Source: Guptibacillus hwajinpoensis (GTDB lineage: Bacteria; Bacillota; Bacilli; Bacillales; Bacillaceae_J). From it: 49,369 nucleotides of DNA. The stretch lies in contig JAENZK010000001.1 in NCBI GenBank assembly GCA_016841285.1, positions 1 to 49,369 on the forward strand, read 5' to 3'. The notes beneath the pieces were generated by a model. The model worked only from the letters and a program-made list of their open reading frames with translations. It was not told the DNA's origin and ran no database searches. The position numbers were made by a program, and so were the translations under genes. Positions 17,172 to 36,029 of the stretch are shown piece after piece. Each line of letters starts with the position of its first letter. Position 1 is the stretch's first letter.

Positions 17172-17326
17172 AATATAATCATAAACTAAAAAAAGACCGC
17201 AAGTGCGCTAACACTTACGGTCTAGTACAATAGTCGCCCTCAAAAAGTGGCCGGCTCGAATTGGGTAATGAAATAGACCAATCCCTACAAGTTGATTAGG
17301 CTCAAGGGAGGTCTATTTCTTTTTGT
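17172..17326 (+). ncRNA. Putative antisense antitoxin RNA (type I TA)
   Basis: Promoter TTTCAA-17-TGtTATAAT (17137-17165); terminator AATAGACC...GGTCTATTTCTTTTT overlapping the toxin stop codon on the opposite strand; boundaries approximate. Confidence 0.7.
17187..17223 (-). terminator. Terminator of toxin mRNA
   Basis: Minus strand AGACCGTAAGTG-ttagcg-CACTTGCGGTCT followed by T run. Confidence 0.8.
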
Positions 17327-17396
17327 CTTGAGACAACATAGCAACAATCAGTAATCCGAATGTTAGCATTAACATTAATGTTTCAAATGTTGTCAT
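17313..17396 (-). CDS. Type I toxin, holin-like hydrophobic peptide MTTFETLMLMLTFGLLIVAMLSQDKKK (27 aa)
   Basis: Strong RBS GAAAGGGGGTGA, single TM helix with Lys tail, BsrE/BsrG/BsrH-like sequence, convergent antisense RNA. Confidence 0.88.
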   Translation of the reverse strand: MTTFETLMLMLTFGLLIVAMLSQDKKK

Positions 17397-17493
17397 AGGC
17401 TTCACCCCCTTTCAGTAGGGGAGTGAGCCAGACCGCCCTTGAGTGAGCTGTTTCTATTATACTTAAAAATATTATATCATAACACTTGTGTTA

Positions 17494-20291: not shown

Positions 20292-21062
20292 ATGAAAATG
20301 ATTGATGCTCACATACATCTAGATAAATATGCAGATGAAGAAATACGTCTGATAATAGAGAAATCCAACTACCTAGATTCTTTGGTGTCTGTTTCTTATG
20401 ATTTAGAATCATGCAAAAGGAATCTGCAATTGTCTAAAAAATACGATAAGGTCAAACCGGTATTTGGATTTCATCCAGAGCAACAGTTACTTACAGCATC
20501 CGAATTATCTTTGATGATTGAATGGATGACTGCTAATCATACAGAAATGATTGCAGTTGGAGAGGTTGGTTTACCGTTTTATAGCAAAGCTGATGGAAGG
20601 ATATCTAGTCTGCAGTTTGAACAATATAAAGAGCTTCTGGAGCAGTTCATAGTTTTGGCGAAAAAATGGGATAAACCGATTGTACTCCATGCTGTTTATG
20701 ATGATGCTCCTATTGTTTGTGATCTTTTAGAGATACATTCAGTTATAAAAGCACATTTTCATTGGTTCAAAGGAGATGATAAGATAATAAGGAGAATGGC
20801 TGAAAATGGATATTATATATCTGTAACACCTGAAATTGTATATAGGGAAAAAATAAAGAAAGTTGCTCAAATGTATCCCATAGAACAAATTATGGTAGAG
20901 ACAGATGGACCGTGGCCATTTGAAGGACCGTTTAGTGGCAAAATGACTCATCCTTTTATGATGAAGCAATCAATTGCTACAATAGCAAAGATTAAAGACC
21001 TTTCAGAGAGTGATGTTGCAGAAAAGATAATTGAAAATACAAGGGAATTCTTTTTGATTTAG
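20292..21062 (+). CDS. TatD-family hydrolase
   Basis: IDAHIH, GFHP, GEVGLP, VLH, HFHW, ETDGPW; start moved to ATG 20292. Confidence 0.9.
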   Translation: MKMIDAHIHLDKYADEEIRLIIEKSNYLDSLVSVSYDLESCKRNLQLSKKYDKVKPVFGFHPEQQLLTASELSLMIEWMTANHTEMIAVGEVGLPFYSKADGRISSLQFEQYKELLEQFIVLAKKWDKPIVLHAVYDDAPIVCDLLEIHSVIKAHFHWFKGDDKIIRRMAENGYYISVTPEIVYREKIKKVAQMYPIEQIMVETDGPWPFEGPFSGKMTHPFMMKQSIATIAKIKDLSESDVAEKIIENTREFFLI

Positions 21063-21080
21063 AATTTTGAAACAGTTGAG

Positions 21081-21851
21081 GTGTTTTTAATGGATTTACA
21101 ATTAAAGGGGAACAATGTACTCGTAACTGGTGGATCGAAAGGGATTGGAAAAGAAATAGCAAAGGTATTTCTATTGGAAGGTGCCAATGTTGCGATTGCT
21201 GCACGTAATATCGATTTTCTAAATAAGGCAAAAGAAGAACTGGGAGATGCAGTTACTTTTTTTCAGTGTGATATTACAAAAGCTGAAGAACGCGAAAAGC
21301 TGATTGTCTCATTTACAGAAGAAAAAGGAGCCCTCGATATTCTTGTTAATAATGCAGGTGGAAGTAATGGTGGATCAACAATGGAAACAGACTTGGATTT
21401 ATTTCATGAAGCGATGGAACTGAATTATTTTTCTGCTGTTCATTTATGTAAATTAGCAGTTGAGCAAATGAAGAAGAATGGCTGCGGGGCTATCATTAAT
21501 ATAACTTCGATCTTTGGTAGAGAAAGTGGTGGGAAGGTTACTTACAATAATGCCAAAGCTGCTCTGATCAGTTTCACAAAGTCGCTAGCTGATGAAGTGA
21601 TTCGCTACGGAATTCGTGTTAACAGTGTTGCACCAGGAAGTATCTTTCATGAAACGGGAAATTGGAAAAAGCGAATGGAAGAGAATCCGGAAAAGATTAA
21701 GGCATTTGTGGAGAACGAAATACCAGGAGGTCGTTTTGGCACAGTTGAAGAAGTAGCCAATGTTGTCGCTTTTCTTGCTTCCGAGAAGGCGTCATGGGTT
21801 GTTGGAGCAAGTCTGAATGTTGATGGCGGTCAATCAAGAATGAATTTTTAG
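21081..21851 (+). CDS. SDR-family oxidoreductase
   Basis: TGGSKGIG, NNAG, YNNAK catalytic motif, VDGG. Confidence 0.92.
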   Translation: MFLMDLQLKGNNVLVTGGSKGIGKEIAKVFLLEGANVAIAARNIDFLNKAKEELGDAVTFFQCDITKAEEREKLIVSFTEEKGALDILVNNAGGSNGGSTMETDLDLFHEAMELNYFSAVHLCKLAVEQMKKNGCGAIINITSIFGRESGGKVTYNNAKAALISFTKSLADEVIRYGIRVNSVAPGSIFHETGNWKKRMEENPEKIKAFVENEIPGGRFGTVEEVANVVAFLASEKASWVVGASLNVDGGQSRMNF

Positions 21852-21883
21852 GTCAAAAGTCCCAGAATTTCAAGTATTTACAG

Positions 21884-21913
21884 GTGCAAATCTATCAATA
21901 TACATGTTATATT
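21884..21913 (+). promoter_or_regulatory. Sigma-A-like promoter of the ncRNA array
   Basis: GTGCAA-18-TATATT with TG extension (TGtTATATT). Confidence 0.5.
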
Positions 21914-21994
21914 TTATATACGCGATACGAACGAAACACACATATCGCTGAATAACGATTTGGTAGAGAAGTACTCTTTGCCATTTAATATTAC

Positions 21995-22356
21995 GGGAAT
22001 GTCCTGGTATCGACAGGGATATTTTGAGCTTGTATTGCGAGTCGCGGGGATCGGCCGCGCAAACAACGTCAAAGCCTATAATAACTGGCAAACAACAAAA
22101 CAACTTCGCATTCGCTGCCTAATAACAGTTGATTGCGGTTCCTTCCTCCATCGTCCATGTGGTAGGATAAGGGACTCACTCTAAGTGGACTACGCCGGAT
22201 TCTGCAGTCTGAAGATGAAGGAAGAGAATAATCAGACTAGCCCCTTCAACGTCAGTTAGCAGGCTAACGGAGAGGGCGAAATCAATTTGCTGACTACACT
22301 CGTAGATGTATAAGTGCCAATATCTTTGCACATGGGTTCGACTCCCATCATTTCCA
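21995..22356 (+). ncRNA. ssrA: tmRNA, divergent copy, tag (A)GKQQNNFAFAA
   Basis: Acceptor stem GGGAATG/CATTTCC-A with G3.U70, TCGACAGGG 5' motif, ATAACT-GGC resume context, tag ORF 22087-22122 ending AA-TAA-TAA, T-arm ATGGG-TTCGACT-CCCAT. Confidence 0.93.
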
Positions 22357-22373
22357 TTTTCTTTGTGATTTTT

Positions 22374-22550
22374 CATCCTGCATTGTACGTAACCCATACT
22401 TGTTTTAAACCGTACTATTTTTTCGGGATTCCTATATGAGTTGACTGATGCCATGCCTGTTTCACAGGATTGCAGAAAGGTCAAACTGCGGAAACCCACC
22501 TGCGAGAGCGGGTTTATAAAACAACTTGGGATACGGCATAGGTGGGACTT
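22374..22550 (+). ncRNA. ssrS: 6S RNA
   Basis: Bacillus 6S motif ACCCACCTGCGAGAGCGGGTT...AAAACAA...ACGGCA...GGGAC; rod-like pairing of TCCTGC/GTGGGA, CGTA/TACG, TTGTTTT/AAAACAA; boundaries approximate. Confidence 0.82.
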
Positions 22551-22592
22551 CATTTTTCTAACGACATAGGTTTATTATAGTTTACAATTACA

Positions 22593-22861
22593 TACCGTGG
22601 TAGGCGGGGAGTTAGCGGTGCCCTGTAACTCGCAATCCGCTTTAGCGAGGCTGAATTCCTTTCTGCGGTATGACAATGTAAGGTTTGCCTTATGTATGCG
22701 GTGTTGACCTTTGGAGTCCTCGCAACAGATACCCATGAAATTGGTCAGGTCGGGAACGAAGCAGCCATAAGTGGTCCATTCTGTGTGTCGAAGGGTTGCT
22801 CTGAATGAGCTTGCAGCATAAGTAACACTTATATTGCCATATCAATGAAAGGTCCACGGTT
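22593..22861 (+). ncRNA. ffs: Large bacterial SRP RNA (scRNA), divergent copy
   Basis: Closing helix ACCGTGG/CCACGGT, Alu-domain GCGGGGAG.TAGCGGTGCCCTGTA...GCAATCCGCT, helix 8 GTCAGGTCG-GGAA-CGAAGCAGC. Confidence 0.92.
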
Positions 22862-22903
22862 TTACATATTCAGATCATGAAAAGTAAATTAGATATATAG
22901 GAG

Positions 22904-22943
22904 ATAAACGCTGGCTCTACATTGTGAGTTAACGTTTATTTTT
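22904..22943 (+). terminator. Intrinsic terminator closing the ncRNA array
   Basis: ATAAACGCTGGCTC...GAGTTAACGTTTAT followed by TTTT. Confidence 0.7.
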
Positions 22944-23032
22944 ATATGGACCGTTTAGATTTAAAAAAGGTTGTATAACTTTCTATTATGTAGTACGATT
23001 AATTTTCAAATAAATGAGGACGTGATTAATAA

Positions 23033-23407
23033 ATGATAAAAATTGAAATTCCTGAAGTAGCTGTTTCGATTACTGAGCGGAAACAAATTAGAAAAGAAAA
23101 TGAGCCAGTGATAACGTCTATTGAAGGATTTATTGACCTCCATAAGATTCCAAGAGACAAAGGTGGATTAATCTTGTTTTATAACATTAATGATGATTTA
23201 CTTTTTGTTGGGAAGGCGAGAAAACTTAGACAACGGGTCATTAAGCATCTGCAAGATAATGTGTCACCACTTAAAAATCACAGAGATGAAGTGTACAGAA
23301 TTGATGTATGTATTGTAGAGGATCCGATGGAAAGAGACATTTATGAAACCTATTTGATTAATAAATTTAAAGCCAAATATAATATAGAAAAGGTGTTTTA
23401 TAAATAA
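23033..23407 (+). CDS. Stand-alone GIY-YIG nuclease domain protein (UvrC N-terminal/YurQ-like)
   Basis: GLILFY...LLFVGKARKLRQRV...YETYLIN...YN. Confidence 0.85.
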   Translation: MIKIEIPEVAVSITERKQIRKENEPVITSIEGFIDLHKIPRDKGGLILFYNINDDLLFVGKARKLRQRVIKHLQDNVSPLKNHRDEVYRIDVCIVEDPMERDIYETYLINKFKAKYNIEKVFYK

Positions 23408-34470: not shown

Positions 34471-35151
34471 ATGTCTAACAAACGGTATTCTGAAGAGTTT
34501 AAATATGAAGTTATATTTGCTTATGAAAAGGGAGATTACTCTATTGAGAAAATCTGTTCAAAATATCAAATTTCTACAAGGACATTAATGGACTGGATTG
34601 AAAAACTTGAAAAATTCGGGGAGGAAGGATTAAAACGTTCTACATCATGGAAACCTTATACTAAGGAACTAAAGATAGCGGCTGTAAATGATTATCTATC
34701 GGGTAATTATTCTAAATGTGAGATCGTTAGAAATTATGGAATATCAAGTAGATCCGTACTCCAGAAATGGATTAACAAGTATAATAGTCATAGAGATTTA
34801 GAGGATACGGTGAAAGGAAGGACAAGCTCTATGACTAAAGGAAGAAAAACTACTTGGGATGAAAGGAAACAAATTGTACTCGATTGTTTAGAGAACGGAA
34901 AAGATTATCAAAGAACATCTGAGATTTATGCGATTTCTTATCAACAAGTGTATCAATGGGTTAAGAAGTATGAAAATGGTGGAGATGAAGCACTTAAAGA
35001 TAAGCGTGGAAGGAAGAAAGAAGAAGCAGAATTAACCCCAGAAGAAATTGTCCAACTCCAGATAAAAAAGTTAGAAAGTGAAAATGAACGGTTACGTGCG
35101 GAGAATTTATTTTTAAAAAAGTTAGAGGAAATCGAAAGGAGGCGAAAATAA
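34471..35151 (+). CDS. IS3 transposase OrfA (HTH repeats)
   Basis: Three HTH repeats, C-terminal ENERLRAENLFLKKL. Confidence 0.9.
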   Translation: MSNKRYSEEFKYEVIFAYEKGDYSIEKICSKYQISTRTLMDWIEKLEKFGEEGLKRSTSWKPYTKELKIAAVNDYLSGNYSKCEIVRNYGISSRSVLQKWINKYNSHRDLEDTVKGRTSSMTKGRKTTWDERKQIVLDCLENGKDYQRTSEIYAISYQQVYQWVKKYENGGDEALKDKRGRKKEEAELTPEEIVQLQIKKLESENERLRAENLFLKKLEEIERRRK

Positions 35152-36029
35152 GTCAAGTCCGATTTGAAGATAAGTATACCGCTATCTATGAACTTCATGA
35201 GAAAGAGGATTTGGCTGTTATTCTACTTTGTGAAATCGCTGGAATATCTAGAGCTGCATATTATAAGTGGTTGAATCGTACGCCTTCCGTTCGAGAACTT
35301 CAGAACGAAGAAATCATAAAAGAGATGAAAGCACTTCATGAGGAAGTTGATGGTATATACGGATACCGTCGAATGACGTTGAACATGAGTCGCAAGTTCG
35401 GCCAGAATTTCAATCATAAGCGTATCCGTAGATTGATGAAAGTCTCAAGAATACAATCTGTCATTCGAAGAAAGAAAACCCTTTATAAGCGCTCTACTCC
35501 TCAACATGTGGCGGAGAATGTATTGAATCGTGAATTCACGGCGGAAAAGCCAAATGAAAAATGGGTAACGGATGTCACGGAATTCAAATATGGTTCCTCA
35601 AAGAAAGCTTATTTAAGTGCTATTCTAGATCTATATGATGGATCAATTGTTAGTTATGTTTTAGGCCACTCCAATAATAATAATCTTGTGTTCAAGACGC
35701 TTGATCAAGCTGTAGAACTTTTGGACGGGGGTCATCCACTTATTCATAGTGATCGAGGGTTTCAGTATACCTCTCATGGGTTTAAACGAAGGATAAACAA
35801 AGCAGAGATGACACAAAGTATGTCACGAGTTGGTAGGTGTATTGATAATGGACCAATGGAATCTTTTTGGGGAACGCTCAAATGTGAGGAGTATTATTTA
35901 CATAAGTATGAAACATTTGAAGAACTTTCTAATGCGATAGATAAGTATATCCATTTTTATAATCATGATAGATATCAAAAAAGACTAAACGGCCTTAGCC
36001 CTATTGAATATAGAGTTAAAGCCGCTTAG
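35115..36029 (+). CDS. IS3 transposase OrfB (DDE), joined to OrfA by -1 frameshift
   Basis: A6G slippery site at 35115-35121; -1 frame open into ORF 35211..36029; WVTDVTE, HSDRGFQY, DNGPMESF. Confidence 0.9.
   Translation, partial: KKVRGNRKEAKISQVRFEDKYTAIYELHEKEDLAVILLCEIAGISRAAYYKWLNRTPSVRELQNEEIIKEMKALHEEVDGIYGYRRMTLNMSRKFGQNFNHKRIRRLMKVSRIQSVIRRKKTLYKRSTPQHVAENVLNREFTAEKPNEKWVTDVTEFKYGSSKKAYLSAILDLYDGSIVSYVLGHSNNNNLVFKTLDQAVELLDGGHPLIHSDRGFQYTSHGFKRRINKAEMTQSMSRVGRCIDNGPMESFWGTLKCEEYYLHKYETFEELSNAIDKYIHFYNHDRYQKRLNGLSPIEYRVKAA

What the first reader, a model, noticed from the sequence alone, without database searches (positions are those of the whole stretch)
21884..22943. Tandem operon of three divergent housekeeping RNAs: tmRNA, 6S RNA and SRP RNA
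Seen: in about 1 kb with no credible CDS, one strand carries a promoter, then tmRNA (21995-22356), 6S RNA (about 22374-22550) and large SRP RNA (22593-22861) with spacers of only about 17 and 42 nt, then one terminator. Established: in B. subtilis these genes are unlinked (ssrA after smpB, scr next to dnaX, 6S genes elsewhere), and none of those neighbours is here. The tmRNA and SRP RNA differ from the canonical sequences I recall by base-pair-preserving changes, which argues for selection rather than decay. Inference: this is a co-transcribed, processed second set of core RNAs covering ribosome rescue, RNA polymerase control and protein targeting. It could be a backup against RNase toxins or phage nucleases that cut the canonical copies, or a stage-specific set. 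I know of no described operon of this composition.
Basis: partly seen in the sequence, partly recalled or inferred. Interest (0 to 1): 0.95.

Follow-up and report, generated by a model that had tools for sequence, protein, structure and literature searches.

The report
Second set of core bacterial RNAs
This Bacillales bacterium carries, in one compact gene cluster, extra and clearly different copies of three RNAs that bacteria normally keep as single scattered genes (ribosome rescue, RNA polymerase control, protein targeting); related clusters with tRNAs occur in scattered relatives, and they likely act as a reserve supply of the cell's core RNAs, possibly cut loose by a stress-activated RNase.

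Summary
Confirmed. Rfam scores full-length tmRNA, 6S and large SRP RNA in tandem. Canonical copies lie elsewhere, beside smpB, aspS and tadA-dnaX, so this is a second set. It is the shrunken form of a wider family of accessory stable-RNA operons in Bacillales: a 6S-SRP core amid tRNAs, sometimes with tmRNA, RNase P RNA or 5S. The window still holds a deleted tRNA-Ser stub. Operon SRP and tmRNA copies each form their own lineage apart from the canonical genes, and local duplication is rejected; SRP pairing covaries. The family is rare: 8 of 401 genomes. One metatranscriptome study has near-identical contigs over all three RNAs and both spacers, at far lower depth than the canonical tmRNA. UACAUA, the reported EndoA/MazF cut site, abuts the SRP 5' end in 19 of 20 operons and 0 of 35 canonical genes. 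Stress induction and toxin processing are untested. Closest analogue: the Anabaena stress-induced tRNA operon.

The parts
21872..21885 (+). Conserved upstream block (ATTTAC core 21876-21881, about -44 to -39); possible activator or UP-type site (inferred)
   Evidence: ATTTAC invariant in 6 of 6 aligned loci
21905..21913 (+). Predicted extended -10 promoter (TGnTATATT) with a poor -35; predicted +1 is A21920
   Evidence: Conserved in 6 of 6 loci, all with A at position 7 after the hexamer; not flagged by the consensus scan; start site not measured
21922..21948 (+). 5' leader hairpin (GCGAUA...UAUCGC)
   Evidence: Fold; both arms in window, G001 and G007, one G-U variant in G002, loop length varies
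21962..21983 (+). Remnant of tRNA-Ser(GCT): 5' and 3' ends kept, about 65 nt deleted
   Evidence: Alignment to the intact tRNA-Ser at the same place in G007 and L100
21995..22356 (+). Second-lineage tmRNA; acceptor stem with G3-U pair kept; CCA not encoded; tag ORF 22087-22125 (GKQQNNFAFAA)
   Evidence: RNA contigs with 2 differences stop at 22356 in three runs of one study
22372..22552 (+). 6S RNA of a lineage distinct from the aspS-linked 6S and from the family's other chromosomal 6S
22589..22594 (+). UACAUA hexamer abutting the SRP terminal helix; matches the reported EndoA/MazF site; candidate processing site
   Evidence: 19 of 20 operons, 0 of 35 canonical genes; PMC11780869 passages
22595..22859 (+). 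Second-lineage large SRP RNA (Alu and S domains; GGAA tetraloop closed by a flipped G-C pair)
22863..22868 (+). Second UACAUA, in the SRP 3' trailer
22893..22948 (+). Predicted terminator-like hairpin with a U-rich 3' arm
   Evidence: Fold, z -2.84; a similar hairpin follows SRP in G002; not called by the strict scan

Best explanation
The locus is a second, divergent set of tmRNA, 6S and SRP RNA genes, the reduced form of an old family of accessory stable-RNA operons in Bacillales, and it likely serves as a reserve that tops up the cell's core RNAs when the housekeeping copies are limiting (stress or recovery; inferred, untested). Shown: three intact structured RNA genes in tandem; canonical copies elsewhere; separate lineages; base-pair covariation; relatives with tRNAs, RNase P RNA and 5S in the same arrays; RNA contigs over the genes and spacers. 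Inferred steps: (1) One transcript starts at an extended -10 promoter, predicted +1 A21920. rRNA promoters start with G and fall when GTP drops, so this one would not be shut off with them. (2) RNase P and RNase Z would cut out the tmRNA, CCA would be added, and the same 3' cut would free the 6S 5' end. (3) A cut at U/ACAUA just before the SRP helix would separate 6S from SRP; EndoA/MazF is the candidate enzyme, with RNase III or RNase Y as rivals. (4) The products would load on the host's SmpB, sigma-A RNA polymerase and Ffh, as no partner protein is encoded in the cluster.
For: Second set. G007 has canonical and operon tmRNA on one contig, so binning contamination does not explain it. Family: 24 of 119 pattern hits in the species-genome scan are true 6S-SRP pairs, with record titles naming Bacillales or, in one case, an unnamed Bacillota MAG; architectures. 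Old lineages: SRP operon versus canonical split 100/100, with genus-level duplication rejected at p-AU 3.7e-4 and family-level at 2.8e-5; tmRNA 3 versus 22 split 100/99, local duplication rejected; 6S operon copies fall outside both chromosomal 6S groups. Selection: 39 of 79 SRP pairs have double-sided changes, 0 of 500 shuffles reach that, and slid controls give 5-11; 19 of 50 for 6S. Expression: near-identical contigs over tmRNA (depth 22-45), 6S and spacers (4-6) and SRP (10-16), with no cover of flanking genes at 21000-21923 and 22932-23183. Canonical tmRNA pieces are at hundreds to thousands. Promoter differs from the G007 rRNA promoters; +1 identity rule from PMC3113569 passages. Precedent: PMC8421152. 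UACAUA; a close EndoA relative with an upstream antitoxin-like ORF is in the genome.
Against: No condition-resolved expression data, so induction is not shown. RNA evidence is contigs from one study, without strand or level, and the canonical depth may include related species. The contig over the 6S-SRP spacer reaches only 11 nt into SRP. Several longer arrays have rRNA-type promoters or sit in rRNA operon tails (L192), which fits growth-linked dosage better than stress. Serial loss is evident (tRNA-Ser deleted; tmRNA absent in G001 and G002; no cluster found in G003 and G004, the latter 94% complete in 570 contigs). Operon copies evolve faster (SRP 83.8% versus 92.8% between G000 and G007) and fold less stably (mean -92 versus -107 kcal/mol). 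For UACAUA: canonical SRP genes also have a conserved 5' flank (NNUUUG in most), so fixity alone is expected. Its last bases can pair with the 3' trailer and predicted accessibility is mixed (mean unpaired 0.22-0.73). EndoA-type cutting was absent in wild-type B. subtilis data. EndoA is in 55 of 55 genomes tested, so there is no natural contrast. 6S operon monophyly is not clean: two long-branch non-operon rows fall inside and the bootstrap had not settled.
Confidence: 0.5

Rival explanations
1. Growth-linked dosage booster: the operons are extended rRNA/tRNA-type transcription units that raise the supply of all stable RNAs in step with ribosomes. The window's copy is a small constitutive version.
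For: Priestia, B. songklensis and Halalkalibacter arrays have promoters resembling the G007 rRNA promoters. An SRP copy sits in a 23S-5S-tRNA tail in G081, and a 5S at a contig end precedes the array in L081. Many arrays carry ordinary core tRNAs.
Against: The window-type promoter (6 loci) lacks the rRNA-type -35 and has a predicted +1 A. Operon tmRNA contigs are far shallower than canonical ones. Dosage alone does not need separate lineages, and 6S RNA is an inhibitor of transcription rather than a growth factor (established knowledge).
Confidence: 0.22
2. Passenger cargo: an array spread by plasmids or integrative elements that benefits the carrier element or nothing, and is now eroding gene by gene in the chromosome.
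For: Patchy: 8 of 401 genomes. Three Priestia plasmid records hold 6S-SRP, one with an integrase gene inside the array. Gene content and neighbours differ between genera. tRNA remnants, lower GC and weaker folds.
Against: Strong covariation across the lineage. 6S and SRP are kept intact in three genomes of the genus while tRNAs are deleted. No integrase or transposase lies next to the window's cluster. RNA is detected. Covariation could, however, predate arrival in this host.
Confidence: 0.16
3. Specialised paralogues: the operon RNAs act differently from the canonical ones, for example as decoys for nucleases, as a tmRNA with a different degradation tag, or as a 6S RNA for another holoenzyme.
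For: Lineage-specific fixed differences: tmRNA D-loop GGUAUCGA in 3 of 3, a rebuilt acceptor stem, tag ending FAFAA in the window and G007 versus FALAA. 6S forms a third group. A sponge role was suggested for Anabaena operonic tRNAs.
Against: All known identity elements checked are kept (G3-U, T-loop, tag ending AA, SRP GGAA loop and Alu domain). L100's tag ends FALAA.
Confidence: 0.12

Closest known systems
Long supernumerary tRNA arrays (L-arrays), e.g. the Anabaena PCC 7120 trn operon (PMC8421152; abstract, passages and section 29 read)
   Same: Extra stable-RNA genes in one operon, patchy distribution, some on plasmids, a second set beside housekeeping genes; the paper shows induction under translational stress, which is the model adopted here.
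   Different: That paper's main text has 0 mentions of tmRNA or RNase P. Here the core is 6S-SRP, with tmRNA, RNase P RNA or 5S in some members. The window has no intact tRNA at all. Induction is not shown here.
Firmicutes tRNA array units and rRNA-linked tRNA clusters (PMC4758250; passages read)
   Same: Bacilli arrays of core tRNAs with rearrangement, deletion and horizontal acquisition; some of our arrays abut 5S or 23S.
   Different: That survey's text has 0 mentions of 6S RNA or RNase P and 1 of tmRNA. Our arrays embed separate lineages of non-tRNA housekeeping RNAs.
B. subtilis ssrA, scr, bsrA and bsrB (single canonical genes)
   Same: Same RNA families and folds. The canonical contexts (secG-rnr-smpB, tadA-dnaX, hisS-aspS) are present in this genome; B. 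subtilis scr between tadA and dnaX was seen directly.
   Different: Unlinked and separately processed. scRNA 5' end is made by RNase III and the 3' end by RNase Y (PMC4838370 passages). The operon copies are about 76% identical to the host's own and have UACAUA where canonical genes mostly have UUUG.
Plasmid-borne rRNA operon with tRNAs of Priestia megaterium pBM400 (recalled; only search listings seen)
   Same: Stable-RNA genes on Priestia plasmids.
   Different: The plasmid stretch examined has 6S-SRP-5S and 7 tRNAs, with no 16S or 23S in the 18 kb scanned. I saw no text describing 6S or SRP copies there.

Membership tests
tmRNA (RF00023) | Full-length covariance-model match above cut-off | tested here: met
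   168.7 bits versus 47
tmRNA (RF00023) | tRNA-Ala-like end (G3-U pair, T-arm) and tag ORF ending in AA-stop | tested here: met
   Read from alignment and ARAGORN; CCA is not encoded and would need adding
tmRNA (RF00023) | Alanylation, SmpB binding and tagging activity | not testable with these tools
   Needs experiment
6S RNA (RF00013) | Model match and closing stem-bubble-stem fold | tested here: met
   74.6 bits versus 46.4; consensus fold with 19 of 50 pairs changed on both sides
6S RNA (RF00013) | Binds sigma-A holoenzyme and templates pRNA | not testable with these tools
   Needs experiment
aspS-linked 6S (6S-1 type) | Lies downstream of aspS and groups with those genes | tested here: not met
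   Genome's aspS-linked copy is on C277; operon copies fall outside that group
Large bacterial SRP RNA (RF01854) | Alu plus S domain, GNRA-type tetraloop helix | tested here: met
   196.4 bits versus 60, model positions 1-256; covariation
Large bacterial SRP RNA (RF01854) | Assembles with Ffh and supports targeting | not testable with these tools
   Needs experiment
L-array (long supernumerary tRNA operon) | Long run of tRNA genes | tested here: not met
   Window has no intact tRNA; relatives have 0 to at least 19 in the 5 kb fetched
L-array (long supernumerary tRNA operon) | Supernumerary to a complete housekeeping set | tested here: met
L-array (long supernumerary tRNA operon) | Patchy distribution, spread by horizontal transfer | tested here: inconclusive
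   Patchy and on plasmids; trees are unrooted and cannot tell transfer from old paralogy with losses
L-array (long supernumerary tRNA operon) | Quiet in normal growth, induced by translational stress | not testable with these tools
   Only contigs from one study
rRNA-operon-linked tRNA cluster | Attached to 16S-23S-5S with an rRNA-type +1G promoter | tested here: not met
   No rRNA in the window; promoter differs; met for relative L192
EndoA (MazF-bs) substrate | UACAUA hexamer, and the enzyme encoded in the genome | tested here: met
EndoA (MazF-bs) substrate | Site is unpaired and actually cut in vivo | tested here: inconclusive
   Window: first five bases 0.63-0.97 unpaired depending on the segment folded; mixed across 19 operons; cutting not testable

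The most novel reading that the evidence does not exclude
Scattered Bacillales keep an old, parallel kit of the cell's non-coding machinery (SRP, 6S, tmRNA, RNase P RNA, 5S, tRNAs) in one operon that is switched on when growth stalls and is matured by the toxin EndoA/MazF itself. The same UACAUA signal at the 3' ends of many canonical tmRNA and SRP genes would mean that this near-universal Bacillus 'toxin' doubles as a stable-RNA maturation enzyme.
Probability: 0.2. Interest if true: 0.92.

Novelty: new variant of a known kind. Interest (0 to 1): 0.72.

Why it matters
SRP RNA, tmRNA and RNase P RNA are treated as single-copy housekeeping genes. An old second lineage of them, kept intact in operons across unrelated Bacillales genera, shows that the housekeeping-versus-reserve split known for tRNAs may extend to protein targeting, ribosome rescue and polymerase control. 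Culturable carriers exist (Priestia megaterium, Schinkia azotoformans, Halalkalibacter), so it is directly testable. The UACAUA placement gives a one-mutation test of a long-open question: why Bacillales keep an almost invariant MazF (85-99% identical in 55 of 55 genomes).

Tried and rejected
Relocation: rejected, canonical copies exist. Binning artefact: rejected, G007 has both tmRNAs on one contig and isolate records carry the pair. Recent local duplication: rejected by AU tests for SRP and tmRNA; no AU test was run for 6S. Antisense ORF 22176-22553: rejected as a gene (interrupted in G007). Phage origin: first viral pattern scan gave 5 hits, none with these RNAs; a tighter pattern gave 0; the phage record search gave 5 single-RNA partial matches and no cluster. 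Toxin-site avoidance inside the RNAs: not seen. UACAU as a generic tRNA-spacer signal: weak, 6 and 7 of 125 tRNA flanks; UACAUA was not in the printed flanks of 11 RNase P or 5 5S genes. Correlating UACAUA with EndoA presence: uninformative, 55 of 55 have it. A regulon for the upstream block: 7 matches at one mismatch, none but the window's in a similar setting. The genome's own rRNA promoters could not be read because a 16S start motif was not found in the assembly; G007's were used. G011 and G073 'extra SRP' matches were sub-threshold and were dropped. Uncovered parts are not taken as evidence of silence. A 6S RNA distribution survey (doi 10.4161/rna.29894) is not held and may bear on novelty. 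No supplements were read. Earlier-finding look-ups gave nothing relevant.

Full report
Observation. Rfam finds three full-length RNA genes head to tail on the + strand: tmRNA 21995-22359 (168.7 bits), 6S 22372-22552 (74.6) and large SRP RNA 22595-22859 (196.4). ARAGORN reads the tag GKQQNNFAFAA. The neighbours are ordinary: a TatD-like nuclease and a short-chain dehydrogenase upstream; a small UvrC-like (GIY-YIG type) protein, a monooxygenase and a flavodoxin downstream. No integrase is adjacent.

Second set, not a relocation. The genome (96.6% complete, 3.4% contamination) has a second tmRNA after secG-rnr-smpB, a second SRP RNA between tadA and dnaX, and a second 6S after hisS-aspS, cut by a contig end. 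The window's tmRNA and SRP RNA are about 76% identical to these. G007 has both tmRNAs on one contig.

The wider family. Among 41 relatives, G007 has promoter, tRNA-Ser, tmRNA, tRNA-Leu, 6S, SRP; G001 and G002 have the same promoter and only 6S-SRP; G025 has 6S-SRP and tRNA-Met. The window keeps the two ends of the tRNA-Ser with about 65 nt removed, so it is a reduced form. I gave 19 of the 119 to Rfam, and 17 had the pair. Examples: B. songklensis 6S-SRP-tRNAs-RNase P RNA; A. deserti 6S-SRP-5S-19 tRNAs; H. suaedae 5S-16 tRNAs-6S-SRP-2 tRNAs; B. dakarensis Ser-tmRNA-Thr-Leu-6S-SRP-Ser; B. fengqiuensis tRNAs-RNase P-Cys-Arg-6S-SRP-Ser-Glu. Three Priestia plasmid records of 22 hits hold the pair, one with 5S, an integrase and 7 tRNAs. 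All 9 metagenome hits had it. Frequency: the strict pattern is in 8 of 401 order genomes, with 0 for the reversed control. Thirteen of 150 genomes listed two or more SRP matches; two were sub-threshold, leaving 11: four with 6S adjacent, two in tRNA or rRNA tails, five with stand-alone extras only. Two of 150 have two tmRNAs. Four of 5 array-bearing genomes have 2-3 RNase P RNAs; the window's genome has one.

Old lineages under selection. In an SRP tree of 55 rows (8 stand-alone copies and 2 long rows left out of the 65), 21 operon-type copies and 34 canonical copies are separated at 100/100. Holding operon and canonical copies of the genus, or of the family, together is rejected (p-AU 3.7e-4 and 2.8e-5). 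The three operon tmRNAs split from 22 canonical ones at 100/99 and local duplication is rejected. The 20 operon 6S RNAs fall outside the 30 aspS-linked ones and outside the family's other chromosomal 6S, but two long-branch non-operon rows fall among them and the bootstrap had not settled. Trees are unrooted, so transfer and old paralogy with loss are not separated. Among 20 operon-type SRP RNAs, 96.6% of cells pair and 39 of 79 pairs change on both sides; no shuffle of 500 reaches this and slid controls give 5-11 (the structure was predicted from the same alignment, which favours it). For 6S the figure is 19 of 50. Against strong constraint: operon copies diverge faster than canonical ones between the same genomes (83.8% versus 92.8%), and have lower GC and weaker folds.

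Expression. Four metatranscriptome runs of one study, held as contigs, were laid. Contigs of about 300 nt with 2 differences cover the operon tmRNA in three runs (depth 45, 27, 22), and their match ends at 22356, its last encoded base. One contig with no difference spans 22320-22544, bridging tmRNA and 6S (depth 4.6). One spans 22410-22605, covering the whole second spacer but only 11 nt of SRP. Flanking genes at 21000-21923 and 22932-23183 have no cover. On the canonical locus the tmRNA is covered by many pieces at depths of hundreds to thousands, secG at 11-24, and rnr-smpB hardly at all, which argues for RNA rather than DNA. Limits: one study, no strand, depth is a poor measure, related species may add to the canonical signal, and a bridging contig does not prove one transcript.

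Promoter and processing (inferred). Six loci share ATTTAC, an extended -10 and an A seven bases after the hexamer; the consensus scan did not call it. G007's rRNA promoters have TTGAC -35 boxes and mostly start at GTCGC-like sequence, and several long arrays resemble them. PMC3113569 (passages) states that B. subtilis rRNA promoters start only with G and that +1 A reverses the stringent response; hence the prediction that the window's operon is not shut off with rRNA. RNase P maturation of tmRNA 5' ends is stated in PMC3328962 (passages); RNase Z at the 3' end is recalled, not read. UACAUA ends within a base of the SRP helix in 19 of 20 operons, in 10 of 10 further loci not used before (some near-duplicates), and in 0 of 35 canonical genes; shuffled flanks give 0.56 of 20. 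PMC11780869 (passages) reports that EndoA cuts U/ACAUA, leaves a 5'-OH, is followed by 2- and 4-nt trimming, is not seen in wild-type data, and that sites near scRNA were excluded from that analysis. The genome encodes a close EndoA relative beside rsbV-rsbW-sigB-like genes. The same hexamer lies in the 3' trailer of 15 of 35 canonical SRP genes at varied positions, 7 of 8 stand-alone copies and 16 of 22 canonical tmRNAs, against 27 of 3132 ORF trailers (kin are not independent). B. subtilis scr itself lacks it. Against the toxin reading: canonical genes also fix their 5' flank, the hexamer's end can extend the helix, accessibility is mixed, and in B. subtilis RNase III and RNase Y do this job (PMC4838370 passages).

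Comparison with what is known. The nearest analogue is the stress-induced supernumerary tRNA operon of Anabaena (PMC8421152: abstract, passages, section 29). The window fails membership because it has no tRNA run, but may work like it. A tRNA-array survey (PMC4758250, passages) does not mention 6S or RNase P. B. methanolicus has the usual single copies and two 6S (PMC4342826, passages). Ten full-text searches listed no paper describing such operons. The library lacks most subscription papers and one 6S survey was not held, so absence from print is not proven. The scan's own index had no matching note.

Verdict. The feature is real, conserved, apparently transcribed and apparently undescribed: a new variant of supernumerary stable-RNA operons that extends the idea from tRNAs to SRP, 6S, tmRNA and RNase P RNA. 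Identity is secure (about 0.9). The reserve role is the best guess (0.5) and toxin-driven maturation the boldest open reading (0.2). Interest 0.72.

Noticed in passing
G000:C360:11237-11520 (L011): The canonical tmRNA is interrupted in its T-loop by a 284-nt insert that looks like a group I intron (label from recalled motifs; Rfam did not flag it). A similar insert start is in 7 of 22 canonical tmRNAs. The operon tmRNA has none.
   Followed up: partly
L018-L033, L011, L167, L170, L175, L290-L293 (canonical tmRNA trailers): UACAUA follows the CCA end in 16 of 22 canonical tmRNAs, mostly in the loop of a hairpin that pairs with the CCA end, and lies in 15 of 35 canonical SRP trailers, versus 0.9% of ORF trailers. 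Possible general stable-RNA processing signal in Bacillales.
   Followed up: partly
L194, L197, L198, L207-L210: A third, strongly divergent lineage of stand-alone large SRP RNAs (7 copies, long branch, 100/100) in G025, G052, G056, G100, G114 and G145, all with UACAUA in the trailer.
   Followed up: partly
L300:2124-2214, L303:2125-2213, L301:1264-1348: A small-SRP-like match (48-52 bits) directly follows a tRNA downstream of extra RNase P RNA copies; may be another array RNA or a chance hairpin.
   Followed up: no
L301:1348-1422: ARAGORN calls a tRNA with a CUA anticodon in an rRNA-tail array with an extra RNase P RNA; possible amber-reading or mutated tRNA-Gln.
   Followed up: no
L292 (G403:C4:3538-4472): Two equal-scoring canonical-type tmRNA genes in direct tandem, 580 bases apart.
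   Followed up: no
window 17198-17462 (-): BsrG-family match (160.4 bits), a type I toxin-antitoxin locus.
   Followed up: no
L015 (G001), between promoter and 6S: About 200 nt of repeat-like DNA sits where other members have tmRNA; probably a small inserted element.
   Followed up: no
G000:C350:1959-2055: ARAGORN calls a selenocysteine tRNA in the genome.
   Followed up: no
window 34471-36029 (+): Two ORFs resembling an IS3-family transposase pair (label from recall).
   Followed up: no
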